A program made the translations under genes and the position numbers. A DNA stretch of 64,000 nt from sequence record OQ850288, one strand, 5' to 3'. Shown here piece after piece: positions 19,672 to 56,729 of the stretch; within the stretch, counting starts at the first letter, position 1, and every line of letters starts with the position of its first letter. The stretch is from Escherichia phage vB_EcoM_ULIM9. The notes below the pieces were generated by a model. It did no database searches and had not been told where the DNA came from. It was given only the letters and a program-made list of their open reading frames with translations.

Positions 19672-19712
19672 AAAAAAGGCTCCCGTAAAAAGGAGCCTTA
19701 AACTTTATTTTT
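19672..19712. terminator. bidirectional intrinsic terminator between convergent genes
   Basis: Hairpin GGCTCC-cgtaaaaa-GGAGCC flanked by A-run upstream and T-run downstream; lies between thyA (+) and the minus-strand gene ending at 19705. Confidence 0.6.
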
Positions 19713-20076
19713 CAGTATTCTTTGTGTTCTTTTCAGTAATAGCTTGGAGGGCTGATACTGATTGAGCCAGATTGTTCACACTGTCAGAGAATTTATCAAG
19801 AGTTTTGGTAAGTTTTGCGTTTTCACCCTTAACATTCTCTAACTGAACTTTCTGGTTCTCCATCCCTAGCTGAATCAGTCTCATGTCAGACTGTAAATCA
19901 CGAATAGCTGAATAGTTACTTTTGGAATAATTATCTAGCTGCTGTAACTTTGTTGTGACAGACACTTCTTGCTTACCACTTGAAACTTGCATAGTGGTAT
20001 ACATCCCAATAACACTAAAAATACCAACTACAATTGCACCAATATTATTTTTAAAAGCTTCCTCTAGCCACTTCAT
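19705..20076 (-). CDS. membrane-anchored coiled-coil protein (possible i-spanin-like or fiber-assembly protein)
   Basis: 123 aa; one N-terminal transmembrane helix (GAIVVGIFSVIGMYTTM) then heptad-rich domain. Confidence 0.3.
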   Translation of the reverse strand: MKWLEEAFKNNIGAIVVGIFSVIGMYTTMQVSSGKQEVSVTTKLQQLDNYSKSNYSAIRDLQSDMRLIQLGMENQKVQLENVKGENAKLTKTLDKFSDSVNNLAQSVSALQAITEKNTKNTEK

Positions 20077-20271
20077 TTATTTCTCCCCCTTAAAAGCTTT
20101 TTCTAAGTTATCTACGAACTCATCATCAATAGGTGTGTCTGTTTTACTCGCAAGGTATCTTGCAAGCTTAAAGAACACTTTCTCAATCATGTATTCACTT
20201 AGAAGGGATAAAATGAGTTTCCAGAAGAAGCTACCTAGATTTTTTAGAAGAATTGCTAGGATTGTAGGCAT
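20077..20271 (-). CDS. small membrane protein (holin-like candidate)
   Basis: 64 aa; hydrophobic N-terminal half, charged C-terminus. Confidence 0.25.
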   Translation of the reverse strand: MPTILAILLKNLGSFFWKLILSLLSEYMIEKVFFKLARYLASKTDTPIDDEFVDNLEKAFKGEK

Positions 20272-20350
20272 TTAATCACCTCATCAGCCAAGATGGTGAG
20301 AATACCCATAAAGAATATTAACACCATCTTAACAATCAGTCAACAAGGGA

Positions 20351-22699
20351 TTAAGCAGTTCTCACCCAAGCCATTAACTTGTAGAACTGGTTAGTAACAC
20401 TAAATGCTGAACCAGAACCTGTACCACCAGTGTTACCACTAACTGTGTGACTGTGAGCACCAATACCTACAGAGTGAGCATGGTCGCCAGCAGATGCAGC
20501 AGTACCACTGACTGAGTGAGTGTGCGCACCATCATTTTCAGTCCAACCAACATGGGTCTGTCTAGAGTTTGAAGACGCGACTCTACCTGATGAAACGTTA
20601 GCGTTGTCACCCTGTGAAATTCTGTGTGCGTGTTGCCCAGAAGTTGCAGCAGTACCACTAACTGAGTGAGTGTGTGCACCAGTACCATTAGTGTTCTTCG
20701 TACCATAATCAAAAGATGAAGTGGTAGCAGAGAAACTATGGGTATGTGATGGTAAGTTACCAACAGCTAACGTCACAGAATCTGAGCCGCCTGTTGTAGC
20801 AACATCTGAACCGTTTGCTGCTGCGATTCTGATAGTTCTACCAACACCATTGTTCAGGTAAGTCCAAGTTAACCCAGGAAGTGCTGTATTAGGGTCAACA
20901 TTGCTGTTAAACCACGTTACAATACCTACTGGATAGATTTTATTAAGGTCTGTAGAGTCACTAATTGCTGTTGCAATTTTCTGGTCAGTTTCTGCTTTAG
21001 TATATGCACCAATCTCTGAAGGAGTTGGTTTAAAATCAGTTGTGTAAAGCTGTGCCTCTCCGGCATAGTCACCATTTCCGTCATAGGCATAGGTGAATGT
21101 TGCCAAACCGTTTGAACCGTATACAAAAGAGATACCCCTTGCGTGTGCAGCAGTCTTACTAGAGTGAGCAACATGAATTGCCAACTCTTTCAGACCACTA
21201 GTCACATTGTTGTTTCTGACAAAACCTGAATACCCAAGATTAAATGCTGAAGGGTTTCCAAGATTATCTACAGATGCAGTCATCAAAGATTGATTTAATA
21301 ACTGAGTCTTAACAAAGTATCTAGCATCTAAGTTAGACCAATTTTGTGGTTGAACCTGCCCATTAATATACAGATTCTTATTCATACTAACCAATGTTGG
21401 CTCTAGGGAAATTTGAGTGCCTGAAAAGCTGTTGCTCAAGGTTACCACGTTAGAATTAGCAGTTCCTACGCCCAGCCACCACCTAGATACGTTCGCAGTA
21501 TCCACACCACGGATATATTGTGGCTGTCCCTGTGTTAAGTTCCTCAATACTAGGCCTTCATTGTTAGATACAATAGTCTGCACATTCGTGAAAGTGTTTG
21601 CCACATTAATCTTAGCAAGACTACTCAAAGTAGCTGCTGGAATGTATCTAGAGTCGATATTAGCCCAATCAGAAGGTTGAACTTGACCTCCAATTTGGAC
21701 TGTTCTGCTCATGGTAATGGTGTTACCTAATGAGATTTGTGTTTTTGCTAAATAGTTATAGATGTTTACAATGTTTTCATCACCATCATTACCAATGTAC
21801 CACTTATTAGTTCCATCTGATTTCCTTGCTTGGATATACAAAGCCGCAGTTGTATCTACATTTTGAATAGTAATAGCATTAGCATTCTTCTTAATAACAA
21901 AATTAGTGAAAATATTAGAACCACTAAATGTGTTATTGCCAGCTAACTGCGCAAATCTCTGATTAGCTGCTGTCTGAGTAAAGTATCTAGAATCTAAGTT
22001 AGCCCAATCAGATGGTTGAACTTGACCAGTAATCTGGATAGATTTGTTCACAGAAATTAGGTTATCCAAAAGAGCTAAATACGCACCGGATTTGACATTT
22101 TTGATAACAAGATTGTCTGTACCTCTATTATCATTACCTAGATACCACCTGTTAGTGCCATCTACATCTTGACCACGAATATAGAGTGGCATATCCTGTG
22201 TGATATTTTTAACAATAAGAGCTTCATTGTCAGAGAGAATAGCTTGAGTACCTCTAAAGGTGTTATTTACAGCTAGTCTTGCATACCTTGCATCATTCTC
22301 TTCATTAGTTCTCATCCCAAGTTCATTAGGACTTGGCTTATTCAGAGTATGATAGACAGTTGCTGACCTTGAAGCATCTGCAATAGTTAGTTTAAGGCCG
22401 TTTGCGTTGATTTTAAAAGTCTTTAAAACATCCCCAACAGTAATCTCAGAAGAGCCTGTAGGGTCGAATACAGCCTTGCCACCGTAAAGTAGCTTAACAA
22501 TTCCTAAGTCACCCGTCATAGTGCTACCAGCAATCTGAACAAATCTTTCAAGTTTAAAAGATGCTAAGAAATCTTGATAGGTCATTCGACGGTCTTCATC
22601 ACCCAGCATTTCAGGTCTCTTTTTAACCCTGACATGAAGAAGGTCGTCTGAACGAATTGTGTCGATTGAGTTTAATTCACTCAACTTGTAGTCTGCCAT
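20351..22699 (-). CDS. tail fiber protein with three internal repeats and His-rich C-terminal tip
   Basis: 782 aa; three roughly 110-aa repeats each ending GQVQPSDWANLDSRY-like; C-terminal HxH array (GAHTHSVSGTAA...HAHSVGIGAHSHTVSG). Confidence 0.7.
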   Translation of the reverse strand: MADYKLSELNSIDTIRSDDLLHVRVKKRPEMLGDEDRRMTYQDFLASFKLERFVQIAGSTMTGDLGIVKLLYGGKAVFDPTGSSEITVGDVLKTFKINANGLKLTIADASRSATVYHTLNKPSPNELGMRTNEENDARYARLAVNNTFRGTQAILSDNEALIVKNITQDMPLYIRGQDVDGTNRWYLGNDNRGTDNLVIKNVKSGAYLALLDNLISVNKSIQITGQVQPSDWANLDSRYFTQTAANQRFAQLAGNNTFSGSNIFTNFVIKKNANAITIQNVDTTAALYIQARKSDGTNKWYIGNDGDENIVNIYNYLAKTQISLGNTITMSRTVQIGGQVQPSDWANIDSRYIPAATLSSLAKINVANTFTNVQTIVSNNEGLVLRNLTQGQPQYIRGVDTANVSRWWLGVGTANSNVVTLSNSFSGTQISLEPTLVSMNKNLYINGQVQPQNWSNLDARYFVKTQLLNQSLMTASVDNLGNPSAFNLGYSGFVRNNNVTSGLKELAIHVAHSSKTAAHARGISFVYGSNGLATFTYAYDGNGDYAGEAQLYTTDFKPTPSEIGAYTKAETDQKIATAISDSTDLNKIYPVGIVTWFNSNVDPNTALPGLTWTYLNNGVGRTIRIAAANGSDVATTGGSDSVTLAVGNLPSHTHSFSATTSSFDYGTKNTNGTGAHTHSVSGTAATSGQHAHRISQGDNANVSSGRVASSNSRQTHVGWTENDGAHTHSVSGTAASAGDHAHSVGIGAHSHTVSGNTGGTGSGSAFSVTNQFYKLMAWVRTA

Positions 22700-22745: not shown

Positions 22746-23918
22746 TTAAGCTGTTCTCTGCCATACATACAGTACGAAGGATGGCTGCTCAATATTAACT
22801 GCCTGACCTCCACCAACGCTATTTGTATTGCCACTATGTGTATGTTCAGAAGAAGAAACTGTTACAGTGCCACTGTGCGTGTGTGAACCAATACCAACTG
22901 TATGGCTGTGAGCACCAATACCAACCGTGTGGCTGTGGTCACCTGATGCACCAGATGTGACGTTAAAGCTGTGTGAGTGCGCACCGTCACTAGAAGTCCT
23001 TGATGTTCTTCTTGCACCACCACCATCAGAGTCAGCTACAGCATTACCAGTGCCATCATTTTCTCTAGGATACACATCATGGTTGTGAGTACCATTGGTG
23101 CTAGTGTTACCTGACACACCGTGTGTATGGTTGCCAGTTGTGTTAGTAGCTTTTGTTCCATAGTCAAAAGAGCTAGTAGTCTTAGTCCCATAGTCAAAAG
23201 CTGAAATTGACACAGTTGCATTATGAGTGTGACCACCACCACTAAGAGATACAGAGTGGGAGTGTTGAGGCATGTTATTAACTGACAAAGTAACAGTTGA
23301 AGCACCAAATACAGAACCTGCTGGTCTTGCATCAGAGGCATAACCAACCAATGCCCTACCTTTTGAAACCAACTCCCAAGTACCTCCACAAATTAAATAT
23401 GTAGAAGGGTTTGCAGAGTTCATGGAAAGATGGATAGTACCTACCGGATAGGAAGCCTGAACAGCCTTGTACAAGTTATTTACTGCTCTCGCTGTAGCAT
23501 ACTTATCTGCATCTTCATTATAAAGGTTAGATGTTGTCCAGTTCTGGACATTACTCAACCCTACCTGTACCTTAGTTGTATTGTGCGGATTACTCTTATC
23601 ATTAATATGCTGTTGAACAAGGCTATTAACCTCTTCGGAAGACATAATCTGTAGATTTGCTCTTGCCTCAGCTACATTAACAATATCTGATAAGTTATTT
23701 GCAGCAACTAACTGAAGAGCATTAATAACATTATCTAAACCAATTTGTGTTTTAGTAACACCATGAGGGTTATTTCTTAGGCTTGAGTGTGGAGCAAGCA
23801 ATTGCTCAAGAGTGCATCTCTTATCCTCAATACCCTGCTTAAGATGGAAGATATCACTAAGGTCAATTGGTAAGGCTGCTTGAGGCAAGGCACTAATTTG
23901 AATTTCACCTACTGCCAT
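22746..23918 (-). CDS. tail fiber / receptor-binding protein with His-rich C-terminal tip
   Basis: 390 aa; C-terminal HxH array (GNHTHGVSGN...GAHSHTVGIGSHTHSG) and terminal ...YVWQRTA similar to ...MAWVRTA of the neighbouring fiber. Confidence 0.65.
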   Translation of the reverse strand: MAVGEIQISALPQAALPIDLSDIFHLKQGIEDKRCTLEQLLAPHSSLRNNPHGVTKTQIGLDNVINALQLVAANNLSDIVNVAEARANLQIMSSEEVNSLVQQHINDKSNPHNTTKVQVGLSNVQNWTTSNLYNEDADKYATARAVNNLYKAVQASYPVGTIHLSMNSANPSTYLICGGTWELVSKGRALVGYASDARPAGSVFGASTVTLSVNNMPQHSHSVSLSGGGHTHNATVSISAFDYGTKTTSSFDYGTKATNTTGNHTHGVSGNTSTNGTHNHDVYPRENDGTGNAVADSDGGGARRTSRTSSDGAHSHSFNVTSGASGDHSHTVGIGAHSHTVGIGSHTHSGTVTVSSSEHTHSGNTNSVGGGQAVNIEQPSFVLYVWQRTA

Positions 23919-43605: not shown

Positions 43606-43681
43606 GTAAAATAACTTGGAGAATCCGAAGGGACTCGAACCCTTATAAACCTGTTTTGCAGACAGGCACATAGCCATTTCT
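43606..43681 (-). tRNA. tRNA-Cys (anticodon GCA), CCA encoded
   Basis: Hand fold: acceptor GAATCCG/CGGATTC, anticodon loop CUGCAAA, T-arm with TTCGAGT. Confidence 0.55.
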
Positions 43682-43685
43682 GTCA

Positions 43686-43778
43686 CGGATTCAAATTGGA
43701 GGAAGATACCAGACTTGAACTGGTACACCGATTTCTCAGCTACTGGCAGTTTAGCAAACTGCTCCCTTACCTTTTAGG
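43686..43778 (-). tRNA. tRNA-Ser (anticodon GCU), type II long variable arm
   Basis: 93 nt; acceptor GGAAGAT/ATCTTCC, anticodon stem GCAGT/ACTGC with loop UUGCUAA, long variable arm, T-loop TTCAAGT. Confidence 0.55.
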
Positions 43779-43791
43779 GTTAATCTTCCAT

Positions 43792-44526
43792 TTATTTCTG
43801 TAATGCGCTCTTCATTTCTGGTGTTGCAATAGTGTCAATCACACCAGTTTTACAGGCATCGTCAAACCAGTCTGGTAAGATACCTGCTAAGAACCCATTG
43901 ATATTCGTTTTAAGGTACTCTGCAATAAGGGCAGCTTCTTCTTCAATCATCTGCACAACTTCATCTGCATAAGCTGTAATCTTTGAAATACCTTCATTAA
44001 TCTTACTGACAGCTTGGTTAGCTAAATCAGAAACAGTATCAAGACCCTTATCAATAGCATCTTGTAAGTCACTTAACACACCGTTAACACTGTCTAGTGT
44101 GCTGTTAATCATGTCAATAGCTTGCTGACCATACTCTGTAGCAACACCCATAATACCACTAAATGGTGTACAACCAACTTGTTCTCCTGCTGCACCCATA
44201 ACATTGGAATACCCCTTTGCTACCTGCATACGTGATGAAAACTCATCAATAGACTTTTGACCATAGTCTGTTAGGGTCTTAGTAGTTGCTGTAGTGCTTG
44301 TCAGGCTTGTTGTAAAGCTGTTTAGAAGGACTGTTGTAAGTCCAGCAGCAACAAGCTTCTCCTTCATTGTAGGGTCTGTTACAGAGCTAATAGAGCTTAC
44401 AAGTGATGTAGAGGCAGCTACGGTTCCACCGAGAACTGCTGCACCAGTAATAAGTGGGTTAGAAAACCCTTTACCGGTTTTTAAGAGATTAAAAATCTCC
44501 TTACCTTGTTCTGTCATCTCTTTCAT
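43792..44526 (-). CDS. hypothetical S/T-rich protein embedded in tRNA array
   Basis: ORF track frame 43792-44742 trimmed to Met at 44524-44526 (MKEMTEQ) because the upstream 72 codons run through two tRNA genes. Confidence 0.5.
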   Translation of the reverse strand: MKEMTEQGKEIFNLLKTGKGFSNPLITGAAVLGGTVAASTSLVSSISSVTDPTMKEKLVAAGLTTVLLNSFTTSLTSTTATTKTLTDYGQKSIDEFSSRMQVAKGYSNVMGAAGEQVGCTPFSGIMGVATEYGQQAIDMINSTLDSVNGVLSDLQDAIDKGLDTVSDLANQAVSKINEGISKITAYADEVVQMIEEEAALIAEYLKTNINGFLAGILPDWFDDACKTGVIDTIATPEMKSALQK

Positions 44527-44542
44527 TAAGCACCTTTGAAAT

Positions 44543-44618
44543 TGGTAGTCCAGTGGGATTTGAACCCTCTTCTCATGTTTTTCAGACACGCGCTTTACCA
44601 TATAAGCTACTTGGACTA
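44543..44618 (-). tRNA. tRNA-Phe (anticodon GAA)
   Basis: Anticodon loop CUGAAAA, T-arm GGTTCAAATCC. Confidence 0.5.
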
Positions 44619-44623
44619 TAAAT

Positions 44624-44699
44624 TGGGGTGACCTACGGGATTTGAACCCGTATAGACCATGTTCACAGCATGGGTCATTACCATTTATGATAAGGCCAC
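44624..44699 (-). tRNA. tRNA-His (anticodon GUG)
   Basis: Anticodon stem CCATG/CATGG with loop CUGUGAA; T-arm ACGGG/CCCGT. Confidence 0.55.
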
Positions 44700-44730
44700 A
44701 TTTAAGGACTCTCGTAAGAACCCTTAGAAG

Positions 44731-44806
44731 TGGCAGCGGCATAAGGATTTGAACCTTAATAGGACAGCTTCAGAGACTGCTGCATTGCCAGTTATGCTAT
44801 ACCGCT
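44731..44806 (-). tRNA. tRNA-Gln (anticodon CUG), tentative
   Basis: D-arm GCAT/ATGC, anticodon loop CUCUGAA, T-arm TAAGG/CCTTA. Confidence 0.45.
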
Positions 44807-44811
44807 AAAAT

Positions 44812-44882
44812 TGGTACTCCATATCGGATTCGAACCGATACATAACACAGATTTTAAGTCTGGCCTCTCTGCCAATTGGAGT
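44812..44882 (-). tRNA. tRNA, anticodon read as UAA (Leu-type) but short variable arm; isotype uncertain
   Basis: 71 nt; T-arm ATCGG/CCGAT perfect; anticodon loop CUUAAAA. Confidence 0.4.
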
Positions 44883-44892
44883 AATGGAGCAT

Positions 44893-44968
44893 TGGCGGGG
44901 GATGTTGGAATTGAACCAACTTCTTCGATTTCAAAGACCGAGGTTTTAACCTTGTAAACTAATCCCCT
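44893..44968 (-). tRNA. tRNA-Gln (anticodon UUG), tentative
   Basis: D-stem GTTT/AAAC, anticodon loop CUUUGAA, T-arm GTTGG/CCAAC. Confidence 0.45.
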
Positions 44969-44976
44969 TTAATTCT

Positions 44977-45534
44977 TTACTTTCTCAGTGGATGAATAAA
45001 GAATGCCAACATAACTCTTTCCCTTGAGAATGCTCTTTCTTCTGGGACAACACTTTTTAGTTTCCATCCAATATAAATTCTCCAGTAAAACTGTTTACCA
45101 AAGACTTTAATTGATGGGATAAAAGCGAATAATCCCCAAGCATTACTGTTCCACATTAGGAGATAACCAGTCTGATTATCTTCAGGGTCAGAACTTACGT
45201 TGATATTACCTTTCCACTTAGTAACATCTTTGACATCTCTTCCTAATACATGGTAAGAGAAGTTATAAGCTTTGTTTCTCCAGAGCCATCCGACTCTCTG
45301 CATGTAGACACCAAACTTACCAATCTTTCTAATCTTAGCCCATCTTTTAACGTGACCTTCATCACCATCAATCGGGTTGTCATAGGTTTCCATCCATCTG
45401 AATCCAAAAGGTAGATGTCCTTTCTTCTCACTGTAGAATGGAACTACGAAAGGTGCTAAGATGACTGCTAGGGTTGCTGCAAATGGTTCTAGTAAAGCTA
45501 GGAAAATCCATGAAGCATACTTCAAATATCTCAT
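44977..45534 (-). CDS. membrane protein embedded in tRNA array
   Basis: 185 aa; N-terminal hydrophobic helix (WIFLALLEPFAATLAVILAPFVVPF). Confidence 0.5.
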   Translation of the reverse strand: MRYLKYASWIFLALLEPFAATLAVILAPFVVPFYSEKKGHLPFGFRWMETYDNPIDGDEGHVKRWAKIRKIGKFGVYMQRVGWLWRNKAYNFSYHVLGRDVKDVTKWKGNINVSSDPEDNQTGYLLMWNSNAWGLFAFIPSIKVFGKQFYWRIYIGWKLKSVVPEERAFSRERVMLAFFIHPLRK

Positions 45535-45553
45535 CTAAATAGCCTCTTAAAAT

Positions 45554-45631
45554 TGGTGTTCCAAGACGGATTCGAACCGTCACTAATACAAGGTTTGAGC
45601 TTGCATCCTCTGCCAATTGGGATACTGGAAC
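45554..45631 (-). tRNA. tRNA, anticodon read as CAA; isotype uncertain
   Basis: T-arm GACGG/CCGTC; anticodon stem GCAAG/CTTGT with loop CUCAAAC. Confidence 0.4.
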
Positions 45632-45632
45632 A

Positions 45633-45707
45633 TGGTACTCACTAAAGGACTTGAGCCTTTTTCTTCATCTTGTAAGGGTGATGTTTTACCATATAAACTA
45701 AGCGAGT
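45633..45707 (-). tRNA. tRNA-Val (anticodon UAC), tentative
   Basis: D-stem GTTT/AAAC, anticodon loop CUUACAA, T-stem AAAGG/CCTTT. Confidence 0.45.
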
Positions 45708-45802
45708 GTGAAAGAGGTCTGAAGTTGTGCCGCTAACTCAACTCCGTGGAATTTGTTACGGTCTTCAGTTGACACCAGCGGTCTTTCACTTGACCTCTGA
45801 AT

Positions 45803-45879
45803 TGGTGCTGCTCACAGGACTCGAACCTGCATTTCCATCCTTACAAGGGATGTGTAATAGCCAATTATACGAAAGCAGC
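45803..45879 (-). tRNA. tRNA-Thr (anticodon UGU)
   Basis: Anticodon stem CATCC/GGATG perfect, loop CUUGUAA; T-loop TTCGAGT. Confidence 0.55.
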
Positions 45880-45885
45880 TTTATT

Positions 45886-55713: not shown

Positions 55714-55928
55714 AAAAGTTAACTACAGTTGAAGACTACTATAAACTGTCCCTGTTAGAACAGTATCGCAGGAGCCAGAATATCAGAAAATGCTATGGTA
55801 AACACGCTGAAGGTGACTTTTACCGTTGCTACGATGCAGATTTAAAAGGTGTAACACCTAGAGGGAAAGTACTGCAAAGACTTGTTGACCTTGAGTGGGA
55901 CAAACGATTGAGAGGGGTTGGGAAATGA
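55710..55928 (+). CDS. hypothetical protein (72 aa)
   Basis: ORF track. Confidence 0.4.
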   Translation: MKKLTTVEDYYKLSLLEQYRRSQNIRKCYGKHAEGDFYRCYDADLKGVTPRGKVLQRLVDLEWDKRLRGVGK

Positions 55929-56368
55929 TTTACGAAGAAAGATACAAGATAGATTTTCAGGATACTCGCCATCATACTTCTTTAAGAGTGACCAAACCAA
56001 ATGGAGAGACTGGTATCATAGCACATTTTGGTGGTGATTATTGGTACGGTACAGGATGCTTTGAAGGTTACACTCAAGAATACTTGAAAGCTTTTTACAG
56101 AGACTTTGCAAACGACTACAACAGGGTTGTTGATGAAAAGAACAAGTGTATTAAGCATGAACACCATGCCAGAGGCTGCCTAAGTATTGTTATGGTACTT
56201 GCGTTCTTCTTAGCAATGTTACTGGCAGTATCAGCAATTAGCTGCATAGCTCAAGATTTGACAATTACACAGATTACTGCAAAGCTACATGATATCTGGT
56301 ACTTGTATGCTGTCCCTTTAGCTGGTATCATCATCTCACTAATTAGGTTCAGAGTTCATAAGAAATGA
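55895..56368 (+). CDS. membrane protein with two C-terminal transmembrane helices
   Basis: 157 aa; LSIVMVLAFFLAMLLAVSAISCIA and YLYAVPLAGIIISLI hydrophobic segments. Confidence 0.45.
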   Translation: MGQTIERGWEMIYEERYKIDFQDTRHHTSLRVTKPNGETGIIAHFGGDYWYGTGCFEGYTQEYLKAFYRDFANDYNRVVDEKNKCIKHEHHARGCLSIVMVLAFFLAMLLAVSAISCIAQDLTITQITAKLHDIWYLYAVPLAGIIISLIRFRVHKK

Positions 56369-56504
56369 CTTAAGGATTCTGAGGTTAAACTTGAAGAGGT
56401 AAGTAAAGAATGCAACCTACAATTATAGCTGTATGTGTTCGTTTTGCAATCGCTGAAATGATTAACAAGGCAATCTTGAAAGATGCCTATGGAGAAACTA
56501 AGTA

Positions 56505-56729
56505 ATGATTAAGACACCTGTACCAATTTTTGGATTTCCTTCTATAGAGGAATTTAAAGTTTATCTTGACAAAAACTTCTATAATGAACAGCCTGTTACT
56601 TTGCTGAAGAGTGACTTATCAGAGCTTCTTGATATGGTTATCAAGGTAACTTCTGAGAAGGAACCTGAGCAGAAAGCTGAGAAGAAGACTAGTAAGAAGT
56701 CCGATAAGAAGACTGAAAAGTCTGAGTAG
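56505..56729 (+). CDS. hypothetical protein with K/E-rich tail (74 aa)
   Basis: ORF track. Confidence 0.4.
   Translation: MIKTPVPIFGFPSIEEFKVYLDKNFYNEQPVTLLKSDLSELLDMVIKVTSEKEPEQKAEKKTSKKSDKKTEKSE

What the first reader, a model, noticed from the sequence alone, without database searches (positions are those of the whole stretch)
19705..20271. Holin-like and spanin-like small membrane proteins located 32 kb away from the endolysin
At the distal end of the late operon are a 64-aa membrane protein and a 123-aa protein with one N-terminal transmembrane helix followed by a coiled coil (i-spanin-like topology). The only recognisable endolysin is at 52588-53052 on the opposite strand. If these are lysis proteins, the lysis cassette is split; otherwise the coiled-coil protein may be a fiber assembly factor.
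Basis: inference. Interest (0 to 1): 0.4.

Follow-up and report, generated by a model that had tools for sequence, protein, structure and literature searches.

The report
Felix O1-type scattered lysis genes
The two small genes behind the tail-fibre genes of this Felix O1-like phage are real, strongly conserved and probably help burst the host cell, but the family, the candidate roles and the scattered layout of the lysis genes have all been published, so the finding is ordinary.

Summary
The window is a Felixounavirus (Felix O1-like myophage). Both ORFs exist as described. They end the late structural operon after two tail-fibre genes and lie 32 kb from a soluble lysozyme-type endolysin.

The 64-aa protein is not a classical holin. 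It belongs to PHROG 402 / Pfam PF26925 ("Phage_PM2_Gpl"), the family of corticovirus PM2 lysis factor P18 (gp l), which is needed for outer-membrane disruption. A Felix O1 homologue of P18 was reported in 2007.

The 123-aa protein (one TMD plus an 83-residue heptad helix) is Felix O1 ORF79. It was listed as a holin candidate in 2010 and is annotated "holin" or "putative class-III holin" in many GenBank records. It fails the i-spanin membership test. No o-spanin partner gene is present, and a canonical overlapped Rz/Rz1-like pair is conserved elsewhere in this subfamily, just outside the window.

P18-like genes recur next to holins (T in T4-like phages, P17 in PM2) or endolysins. This supports a lysis role and makes the 123-aa protein the best holin candidate. 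That role is untested, and a Sf14 homologue was detected in a crude virion preparation.

Already known; low interest.

The parts
20077..20271 (-). 64-aa P18-like protein (Felix O1 ORF78 homologue; PHROG 402 / Pfam PF26925 Phage_PM2_Gpl). Three predicted helices. Conserved E..FF..T.T..DD core and acidic C-terminus.
   Evidence: ORF. phrog_402 at 1.4e-22. PF26925 is precomputed on 98%-identical proteins and named. PM2 gp l falls in the same PHROG at 8.2e-14. hhalign against gp l gives probability 92%, E 5.7e-7. AlphaFold2. dN/dS 0.044.
19705..20076 (-). 123-aa single-TMD, long coiled-coil protein (Felix O1 ORF79 homologue; PHROG 4038). Putative class-III-type holin; function unverified.
   Evidence: ORF. 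phrog_4038 at 1.7e-71. TMD at 11-31. AlphaFold2 helices 3-32 and 40-122. Heptad register. Annotated holin or putative holin in many records. Family confined to Ounavirinae, with 6 hits in 1.84 billion representatives. dN/dS 0.028.
20083..20091 (-). Shine-Dalgarno sequence AAGGGGGAG for the 123-aa gene, inside the end of the 64-aa gene. The stop TAA and start ATG are directly adjacent, so the two genes are tightly coupled.
   Evidence: Read directly from the sequence.
19676..19699 (.). Bidirectional intrinsic terminator closing the late operon and the convergent td/frd operon.
   Evidence: The same hairpin is listed as t79/t80 in Felix O1 (PMC3185647).
20315..20343 (-). Sigma-70-like promoter match (TTGACT-17-TAATAT with TG extension) in the 79-nt gap between the fibre gene and the 64-aa gene. 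A 9-bp inverted repeat overlaps it. Function unproven.
   Evidence: This is a consensus match only.
52588..53052 (+). Soluble lysozyme-type endolysin with no signal or SAR sequence. It therefore needs a hole-forming holin.
   Evidence: PF00959 at 2e-40 and phrog_7. N-terminus read.

Best explanation
The two genes form a small, co-expressed lysis module at the distal end of the late operon of a Felix O1-like phage. This is one piece of a lysis system that is scattered over the genome, as it is in T4.

The 64-aa protein is a homologue of corticovirus PM2 P18 (gp l). It is a small helical, partly amphipathic protein made in the cytoplasm without a signal sequence. In PM2 it is required for the last step of lysis, breaking the outer membrane.

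The 123-aa protein is anchored in the inner membrane by one N-terminal helix and carries an ~83-residue coiled-coil rod. It most likely acts as the holin: it accumulates in the inner membrane and then opens it, so that the soluble lysozyme encoded 32 kb away (52588-53052) reaches the cell wall. The P18-like protein, together with the Rz/Rz1-type spanins encoded just outside the window, then disrupts the outer membrane.

Shown here: the genes, their conservation, their architecture, homology of the 64-aa protein to P18, the recurring holin or endolysin neighbourhood of P18-like genes, and the absence of an o-spanin partner.

Inferred: holin activity of the 123-aa protein, its N-in/C-out topology, and the outer-membrane role of the 64-aa protein in this particular phage.
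For: 1. Homology to P18: the 64-aa protein and PM2 gp l fall in the same PHROG. hhalign gives probability 92%. Near-identical proteins carry PF26925 Phage_PM2_Gpl. P18 homologues in Felix O1 and RB49 are stated in PMC1950889.

2. P18 function: it is described as required for outer-membrane disruption, and P17 as the holin, in PMC6356626 and PMC9502842.

3. Neighbourhood of P18-like genes. They lie directly before the T holin in three T4-like lineages. One overlaps the P17 holin gene in PM2. They lie directly after a lysozyme or after an M15 peptidase. They lie next to small single-TMD proteins in Ss1-like podophages.

4. The 123-aa protein has one TMD and a large extramembrane domain. It is conserved with the P18-like gene in every Ounavirinae lineage examined, whatever the fibre type.

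5. The endolysin is soluble, so a holin is required. Canonical spanins exist elsewhere in the subfamily, so an extra i-spanin is not needed.

6. There is strong purifying selection on both genes, and they evolve independently of the fibre.

7. Published annotation: gp79 is listed as a holin candidate (PMC3185647), and the Michonne homologue is called a 'putative class-III holin' (PMC4591319; record).
Against: 1. No experiment exists for either protein in any Ounavirinae phage. The Meda paper states that no holin was identified.

2. Annotators disagree. Mushroom calls a different protein the holin (DUF7338, window 44977-45534) and leaves the 123-aa homologue hypothetical.

3. The 123-aa protein has no significant similarity to the T holin, to PM2 P17, or to any holin family.

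4. Its most conserved segment is the C-terminal tip of the coiled coil. Relatives give weak to moderate matches to Rz-like spanin PHROGs, with 2e-7 for the Hafnia phage homologue. Both features look more spanin-like than holin-like.

5. The Sf14 homologue gp55 was detected by mass spectrometry in a particle preparation.

6. phiEa21-4 has its own 2-TMD holin candidate beside its endolysin, yet it keeps the pair.

7. Other small TMD proteins lie about 3 kb downstream of the endolysin in the window.

8. Felix O1 RT-PCR put ORF79 in the 5-min class. That table also puts the major capsid gene in the same class, so it is unreliable.

9. The positive-inside rule does not fix the topology.
Confidence: 0.55

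Rival explanations
1. The 123-aa protein is not the holin. It is an i-spanin-like, inner-membrane-anchored coiled-coil rod that works with the P18-like protein, in place of a lipoprotein o-spanin, as a second outer-membrane-disruption system. The true holin is one of the other small membrane proteins: the 157-aa 2-TMD protein at 55895-56368, the 31-aa ORF at 56410-56505, or the DUF7338 protein at 44977-45534.
For: The architecture matches an i-spanin. The C-terminal tip is the most conserved part. There are matches to Rz-like spanin PHROGs: 0.009 for the window protein, 2e-7 for Zyzzx gp4, and several for P0149. The partner gene is homologous to an outer-membrane-disruption factor. Ss1-like podophages have a triplet of TMD-coiled-coil protein, P18-like protein and a separate 69-aa single-TMD protein, which could be the holin there. 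Alternative TMD candidates lie near the endolysin.
Against: The PHROG matches can be explained by TMD plus coiled-coil composition. hhalign against the genus' own i-spanin gives probability 0.2%, and against the podophage TMD-coiled-coil proteins 11%. The subfamily already has a complete spanin pair. In the two systems where the neighbour of a P18-like gene has an established or homology-based function, T and P17, that neighbour is a holin. DUF7338 also occurs in T-even phages that have their own T holin, and it is missing from Sf14.
Confidence: 0.2
2. One or both proteins are tail-fibre assembly factors or minor virion components rather than lysis proteins.
For: They lie directly after the two fibre genes in the late operon. 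P18-like genes sit inside tail or fibre modules in Grimontviridae, Lahexavirus and Ss1-like phages, and after gp37 in T4-like phages. Sf14 gp55 was detected by mass spectrometry in particles. The Sf14 authors found no homologues of the phage Mu fibre chaperones gp50/gp51. A helical coiled coil recalls T4 gp57A (from memory, not tested here).
Against: The small genes are 90-100% identical where the long fibre is only 48-62% identical. The pair is retained next to unrelated fibre or adhesin types. P18 has a genetically defined lysis role in PM2, which has no tail fibres. P18-like genes also sit directly after endolysins, with no fibre nearby. Felix O1 virion proteomics did not list gp78 or gp79. 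The Sf14 sample was a crude pellet that was TCA-precipitated. A membrane anchor is unusual for a fibre chaperone.
Confidence: 0.1
3. The pair has another membrane function, such as superinfection exclusion, lysis inhibition or antiholin control, or interference with host envelope or division proteins.
For: There is a possible own sigma-70-like promoter. Felix O1 RT-PCR gave a maximum at 5 min for ORF79. There is a weak DivIC-type match (5.7e-4, below cut-off). rIIA and rIIB are present in the subfamily.
Against: There is no similarity to Imm, Sp, RI, RIII or the defence families scanned. The RT-PCR table is internally inconsistent. The neighbourhood evidence points to lysis effectors.
Confidence: 0.08

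Closest known systems
PM2 lysis factor P18 (gp l), Pfam PF26925 Phage_PM2_Gpl / PHROG 402
   Same: The 64-aa protein matches the same profile and shares the conserved E..FF..T.T..DD core. It is small, helical and lacks a signal sequence. Its gene lies next to a single-TMD protein gene at the end of a late operon.
   Different: The window protein has a ~13-residue hydrophobic N-terminal extension that PM2 gp l lacks. From my memory of Krupovic et al. 2007 (Mol Microbiol; paper not retrievable here), gp l was described as having no TMD. The gene order is reversed (P18-like first). This phage also has an endolysin and, in relatives, canonical spanins, whereas for PM2 neither an endolysin nor spanins were recognised originally. 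The function has not been tested in any tailed phage.
PM2 P17 (gp k) holin
   Same: It has one N-terminal TMD followed by a C-terminal helical segment, and its gene is adjacent to the P18-type gene.
   Different: No detectable sequence similarity (hhalign probability 0.3%). The sizes are 53 aa against 123 aa. The window protein has a much longer heptad coiled coil.
T4 holin T (class III, Pfam PF11031)
   Same: It has a single TMD with a large non-membrane domain. Its gene follows the tail-fibre genes and lies far from the endolysin. In Krischvirus and other T4-like phages, t is directly preceded by a P18-like gene, exactly as the 123-aa gene is here.
   Different: There is no PF11031 match. 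The periplasmic domain of T is globular and binds the antiholin RI (established knowledge, from memory), whereas this protein is one long coiled-coil helix. The sizes are 218 aa against 123 aa.
Two-component spanins (lambda Rz/Rz1; the Felixounavirus pair such as Mushroom gp091/gp092)
   Same: The 123-aa protein has the i-spanin layout of an N-terminal TMD plus a coiled coil of about 100-150 aa. Relatives give weak to moderate profile matches to Rz-like PHROGs.
   Different: There is no embedded, overlapping or adjacent lipoprotein gene, and the protein contains no Cys. AlphaFold2 predicts one uninterrupted helix rather than two segments with a hinge. A genuine i-/o-spanin pair is conserved elsewhere in the subfamily.
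Disruptin (phage phiKT gp28), a single-component outer-membrane disruptor
   Same: Conceptually like P18: a small helical amphipathic protein made in the cytoplasm that acts on the outer membrane after the holin and endolysin. This rests on my own knowledge and was not tested here.
   Different: No homology was tested or expected. Disruptin is strongly cationic, whereas the 64-aa protein is about neutral with an acidic C-terminus.

Membership tests
PM2 P18/gp l family (PF26925, PHROG 402) | Significant full-length match to the family profile, shared with PM2 gp l itself | tested here: met
   Window protein against phrog_402: 1.4e-22, residues 5-64. PM2 gp l against phrog_402: 8.2e-14. hhalign of the family alignment against gp l: probability 92%, E 5.7e-7. 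PF26925 is precomputed on 98%-identical proteins. The local Pfam copy gave no hit, probably because it lacks this recent model.
PM2 P18/gp l family (PF26925, PHROG 402) | Small (about 50-85 aa) helical protein with the conserved E..FF...T.T..DD motif and no signal peptide | tested here: met
   Invariant E26, F33, F34, T46, D49 and D50 (protein numbering); F15 and T44 are conserved in 90% or more of 40 diverse members (whose numbering is one lower because the first Met was omitted). Three helices, pLDDT 88.
PM2 P18/gp l family (PF26925, PHROG 402) | Requirement for outer-membrane disruption at lysis | not testable with these tools
   Known only for PM2, as summarised in PMC6356626 and PMC9502842. 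Supported indirectly, because P18-like genes occupy the post-endolysin slot in several phages.
Two-component spanin, i-spanin subunit (Rz-like) | N-terminal TMD followed by a coiled-coil periplasmic domain | tested here: met
   TMD at 11-31 and helix at 40-122 with a heptad register. The periplasmic location of the C-terminal domain is not established.
Two-component spanin, i-spanin subunit (Rz-like) | Cognate o-spanin lipoprotein gene (lipobox plus Cys) that is embedded, overlapping or adjacent | tested here: not met
   The only embedded lipobox ORF is a 30-aa TTG ORF at 20027, which lacks a charged n-region. It is absent from Mushroom, Sf14, phiEa21-4 and Zyzzx. The 64-aa neighbour has no Cys. 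No credible lipoprotein ORF exists anywhere in the window.
Two-component spanin, i-spanin subunit (Rz-like) | Sequence membership of a known Rz family | tested here: inconclusive
   Window protein against phrog_739: E 0.009. Hafnia phage homologue: 2e-7. hhalign against the genus' own i-spanin: probability 0.2%. These matches are compatible with compositional similarity between TMD plus coiled-coil proteins.
T4-type class III holin (Phage_holin_T, PF11031) | Match to PF11031 / PHROG 860 | tested here: not met
   No hit for the 123-aa protein. The ECD7 T holin scores 5.3e-61 in the same scan.
T4-type class III holin (Phage_holin_T, PF11031) | One TMD with N-in/C-out topology and a large periplasmic domain | tested here: inconclusive
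   One TMD is present. Flanking charges are balanced, with 2 K/R on each side, so the orientation is not resolved. No dedicated topology predictor was available.
Holin (functional class) | Timed permeabilisation of the inner membrane that releases a soluble endolysin | not testable with these tools
   The evidence is circumstantial only. The endolysin is soluble. The gene occupies the holin position next to a P18-like gene. It lies in the late operon.
PM2 P17 (gp k) holin family (PHROG 32586) | Sequence similarity to gp k | tested here: not met
   hhalign probability 0.3%. gp k falls in phrog_32586, while the 123-aa protein falls in phrog_4038.

The most novel reading that the evidence does not exclude
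The P18-like protein and a single-TMD partner form a mobile two-gene lysis module that tailed and tailless phages exchange. The partner is here a coiled-coil rod, in T4-like phages it is T, and in PM2 it is P17. In Ounavirinae the coiled-coil partner might not be a plain holin. It might instead be an inner-membrane anchor that positions or releases the P18-like protein to breach the outer membrane. That would be a lipoprotein-free alternative to spanins that coexists with them.
Probability: 0.15. Interest if true: 0.5.

Novelty: already known. Interest (0 to 1): 0.2.

Why it matters
It matters little as a discovery. The proteins are 98-100% identical to those of Felix O1 and Mushroom. The P18 homology was published in 2007, the holin candidacy in 2010, and the scattered lysis layout in 2010-2019.

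The practical value is annotation hygiene. Every record inspected here labels the 64-aa protein 'hypothetical', and one truncates it to 33 aa, although it belongs to a family with a genetically defined lysis role. The label 'holin' is also attached to two different proteins in different Felixounavirus records.

The holin of this widely used group of diagnostic and biocontrol phages has still not been identified experimentally. The recurring pairing of a P18-like gene with a single-TMD protein gene gives a cheap, specific hypothesis to test.

Tried and rejected
1. Embedded o-spanin. The only lipobox ORF inside the pair is a 30-aa TTG ORF at 20027. It is not conserved even in Mushroom, whose protein is identical, so it was rejected. 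A window-wide lipoprotein scan found only antisense artefacts.

2. Homology of the 123-aa family to PM2 gp k, to the Felixounavirus i-spanin, and to the TMD-coiled-coil proteins next to P18-like genes in podophages. hhalign probabilities were 0.3%, 0.2% and 11%, so none is significant.

3. Search of 1.84 billion representatives with the 123-aa protein. It gave only 6 hits, and no family outside Ounavirinae-like phages.

4. PDB sequence searches for both proteins found nothing meaningful.

5. Foldseek of the 64-aa model against viral structures returned only uncharacterised family members.

6. NCBIfam gave only noise.

7. The search for related loci failed with the family alignment because there was no conserved 7-mer stretch. 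With one Vibrio-phage member it gave a single locus. Contexts were obtained through the look-up of encoding contigs and GenBank records instead.

8. DUF7338 (185 aa, 44977-45534) as the holin was considered doubtful. It is present in many T-even phages that have their own T holin, and it is absent from the corresponding tRNA-region slot of Sf14.

9. The phiEa21-4 'holin' gp34 has no TMD. The 2-TMD gp35 has no homologue in Felixounavirus or Mooglevirus.

10. The Sf14 supplementary files held no mass-spectrometry table. The primary PM2 lysis paper (Krupovic et al. 2007, Mol Microbiol) was not retrievable, so its content is cited through PMC1950889, PMC6356626 and PMC9502842.
Full report
**What the window is.** A 4-kb query around the finding matches 274 phage records at 88-93% identity. 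Nearly all are Felixounavirus (Felix O1-like myophages of Escherichia, Salmonella and Shigella). Gene order is collinear with Salmonella phage Mushroom, Felix O1 and Shigella phage Sf14.

**Check of the observation.**
- Both ORFs are present on the minus strand: 64 aa at 20077-20271 and 123 aa at 19705-20076.
- They follow two tail-fibre genes (22746-23918 and 20351-22699; PHROG tail fiber, Pfam gp37_trimer/Gp10_C).
- They are closed by a bidirectional terminator at 19676-19699, which faces the convergent thymidylate synthase gene.
- The stop of the first gene and the start of the second are directly adjacent (TAAATG), with a strong Shine-Dalgarno sequence inside the first gene.
- Both are real genes. 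Each matches a PHROG over its full length. Against Sf14, dN/dS is 0.044 and 0.028 at saturating dS.
- The 123-aa protein has one hydrophobic segment at residues 11-31.
- AlphaFold2 places a helix at 3-32, a low-confidence linker at 33-39, and one continuous helix at 40-122.
- One heptad register puts hydrophobic residues at 71% of a/d positions, against 34% overall.
- The 64-aa protein is predicted as three helices with mean pLDDT 88. Its N-terminal helix is hydrophobic but amphipathic and contains two lysines, so 'membrane protein' is only borderline.
- The endolysin at 52588-53052 (+) is a PF00959 lysozyme (2e-40) with no signal or SAR sequence. It lies 32.3 kb away.

**What the 64-aa protein is.**
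- Proteins 98% identical to it carry the precomputed Pfam family PF26925, which a later call names Phage_PM2_Gpl.
- I fetched corticovirus PM2 and translated gp l, which is 51 aa.
- gp l falls in the same PHROG as the window protein (phrog_402: 8.2e-14 against 1.4e-22).
- A profile of ten diverse family members aligns to gp l with 92% probability.
- In PM2, gp k (P17) permeabilises the cytoplasmic membrane as a holin of its own class, and gp l (P18) is required to disrupt the outer membrane (PMC6356626; PMC9502842).
- Krupovic and Bamford wrote in 2007 that P18 homologues are encoded by 'PaP3, Felix 01, and RB49' and by several cyanophages (PMC1950889). Felix O1 ORF78 is the 98%-identical counterpart of the window protein.
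- This homology is therefore published, although every GenBank record I inspected calls the protein hypothetical. Mushroom truncates it to 33 aa, even though the full ORF is intact there.

**Genomic neighbourhood of P18-like genes.** I examined about a dozen independent lineages.

| Lineage | Position of the P18-like gene |
|---|---|
| Krischvirus ECD7 and two other T4-like contigs | Between the distal fibre gene and the T holin gene |
| PM2 | Overlaps the holin gene k |
| Vibrio-phage-like contigs and a Shewanella prophage | Directly after a lysozyme gene, the usual spanin slot |
| One further contig | Overlaps the end of an M15 peptidase gene |
| Ss1-like podophages | Flanked by a ~100-aa TMD plus coiled-coil protein and a 69-aa single-TMD protein, inside the fibre module |
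| Grimontviridae and Lahexavirus | Among structural genes, with no obvious membrane neighbour |

Most contexts therefore tie the family to lysis genes, and most often to a single-TMD protein.

**What the 123-aa protein is.**
- It is PHROG 4038, annotated as unknown function. It is the counterpart of Felix O1 ORF79.
- The family is narrow. A full HMMER scan of 1.84 billion representatives gave only six hits at E of 0.001 or lower. Two of these are genuine divergent relatives of 114 and 128 aa.
- The PHROG profile also recognises phiEa21-4 gp74 and Hafnia phage Zyzzx gp4.
- In every Ounavirinae lineage inspected it follows the P18-like gene. This holds whether the preceding fibre is T4 gp37-like, a phiKO2-like tail protein or an adhesin.
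- Whichard et al. (2010) listed gp79 among five holin candidates and noted that, as in T4, the holin is not next to the lysin (PMC3185647).
- Many records call it holin or putative holin.
- The Michonne announcement speaks of a 'putative class-III holin' (PMC4591319), and the record attaches that label to this homologue.
- The Moogle and Meda announcements state that Felix O1-like lysis genes are scattered rather than in a cassette (PMC4319497; PMC6486253). Meda adds that no holin was identified.

**Is it an i-spanin?**
- The architecture fits an i-spanin, but the defining partner is missing.
- The only lipobox ORF within the pair is a 30-aa TTG ORF. It is not conserved in Mushroom (identical protein), Sf14, phiEa21-4 or Zyzzx.
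- The 64-aa neighbour has no cysteine, and the window has no credible lipoprotein ORF.
- Mushroom carries an overlapped pair elsewhere: a 115-aa TMD protein and an 89-aa lipoprotein with an MSGC lipobox. Its position projects about 3.4 kb beyond the window end.
- Homologues of that i-spanin are present in 401 phage records, including Felixounavirus, Mooglevirus, Erwinia and Hafnia members.
- PHROG matches to Rz-like families are weak for the window protein (0.009) and moderate for the Hafnia homologue (2e-7).
- Profile comparison with the genus' own i-spanin is null.
- I therefore do not file it as a spanin. A spanin-like way of working remains a live rival, for two reasons. The most conserved segment is the C-terminal tip, LDK(L/F)SDS(V/I)N. 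Its partner gene belongs to an outer-membrane-disruption family.

**Is it a fibre-assembly or virion protein?**
- Points against:
  - The long fibre is only 62% identical to Mushroom and 48% to Sf14. The two small proteins are 98-100% and 90-92% identical. That is more conserved than thymidylate synthase, which is 78% identical to Sf14.
  - Felix O1 virion proteomics did not list gp78 or gp79.
- Point for:
  - The Sf14 structure paper lists gp55, 'Holin or lysozyme', as detected by mass spectrometry in particles (PMC11821841). I verified that gp55 is the syntenic homologue.
- Caveat: the Sf14 sample was a pelleted, TCA-precipitated lysate, so membrane carry-over is plausible. This is a caveat, not a refutation.

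**Most likely mechanism.**
- The endolysin is soluble, so a hole-forming holin is needed. Spanins are accounted for elsewhere.
- The 123-aa single-TMD protein is conserved across the subfamily, tightly coupled to a P18-like gene, and sits exactly where T and P17 sit in their genomes.
- I therefore favour this model. The pair is a late lysis module in which the 123-aa protein is the holin. The 64-aa protein is a P18-type accessory factor acting on the outer membrane, or on the holin step, alongside the spanins.
- My confidence that the 64-aa protein is a P18 homologue is about 0.9. My confidence in the whole functional model is about 0.55.

**Weaknesses of this model.**
- No experiment exists for either protein.
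- There is no homology to any holin family.
- The topology is unresolved.
- phiEa21-4 has a lineage-specific 2-TMD holin candidate beside its endolysin, yet it keeps the pair.
- Other small TMD proteins lie about 3 kb downstream of the window's endolysin.
- The Felix O1 RT-PCR table is unreliable and places ORF79 in the 5-min class.

A lysis role and a split lysis system are supported. The roles are probably swapped. The 'holin-like' 64-aa protein belongs to an outer-membrane-disruption family, and the 'spanin-like' 123-aa protein is the better holin candidate.

**Novelty.** Everything essential is already in the literature or the databases: the P18 homology in 2007, the gp79 holin candidacy and the non-adjacent lysin in 2010, and the scattered lysis genes and class-III holin annotation in 2015-2019. 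The proteins here are near-identical to those of the type phage. The residual points of interest are that the holin of Felix O1-like phages has never been shown experimentally, and that the recurring pairing of a P18-like gene with a single-TMD protein gene across tailed and tailless phages does not seem to have been analysed as a module. I rate interest at 0.2.

Noticed in passing
window 44977-45534 (-): A 185-aa DUF7338 / PHROG 2143 protein with one N-terminal TMD sits between tRNA genes. Mushroom and a few other records annotate it as 'holin'. However, 55-60%-identical homologues occur in many T-even-type phages (for example RB43 and several Klebsiella, Enterobacter and Cronobacter phages), which, as far as I know, carry their own T holin; the corresponding slot in the tRNA region of Sf14 holds no such gene. 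The holin label looks doubtful.
   Followed up: partly
window 55895-56368 (+) and 56410-56505 (+): A 157-aa protein with two C-terminal TMDs (GTG start) is followed by a 31-aa single-TMD ORF. Both are on the endolysin strand, about 3 kb downstream of it. These are alternative holin or antiholin candidates that I did not characterise further.
   Followed up: no
window 20272-20350 (-): The 79-nt gap between the long fibre gene and the 64-aa gene holds a sigma-70-like promoter match (TTGACT-17-TAATAT with TG). It also holds a 9-bp inverted repeat (AAGATGGTG ... CACCATCTT) that spans the -10 element. The small-gene pair might therefore have its own regulated promoter.
   Followed up: no
L002 19806-20000 (Mushroom NC_041923.1): The Mushroom record annotates only a 33-aa C-terminal fragment (gp057) of the P18-like gene. 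The full 64-aa ORF is intact and 98% identical to the window protein.
   Followed up: yes
L021 2690-3388; L018 3699-4219; L008 3501-3888: Ss1-like podophage contigs of about 38-42 kb carry a compact cluster inside the tail-fibre module. L021 has all three genes: a 103-aa TMD plus coiled-coil protein, a P18-like protein, and a 69-aa single-TMD protein. L018 shows the TMD-coiled-coil gene followed by the P18-like gene. Cronobacter phage Ss1 (L008) shows the P18-like gene followed by the 68-aa single-TMD gene. The coiled-coil protein has the same architecture as the 123-aa protein but no significant sequence similarity to it.
   Followed up: partly
window 20351-22699 (-) and 22746-23918 (-): Both tail fibres carry repeated HxH motifs (HTHS, HSHT, HAHS) and Pfam gp37_trimer/Gp10_C domains, so their tips look T4 gp37-like. 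The long fibre diverges strongly between close relatives (48-82% identity), while the flanking genes stay above 90%.
   Followed up: partly
window 43617-48295 (-): A cluster of 21 tRNA genes lies on the minus strand. The ORF listing ORF at 43792-44742 (316 aa) overlaps four of them, so its annotated start is too far upstream. The Mushroom record lists its tRNAs on the strand opposite to the one ARAGORN finds here.
   Followed up: no
L026 18104-18495 (phiEa21-4): The phiEa21-4 RefSeq 'holin' gp34 has no hydrophobic segment. The neighbouring 53-aa gp35 has two TMDs and is the more plausible holin there. Neither has a homologue in Felixounavirus or Mooglevirus.
   Followed up: partly
L009 3710-4045 (phiEa21-4 gp74): The phiEa21-4 homologue of the 123-aa protein has a lipobox-like IVGC inside its TMD, after a charged N-terminus. 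This is not seen in the other family members and is probably coincidental.
   Followed up: no
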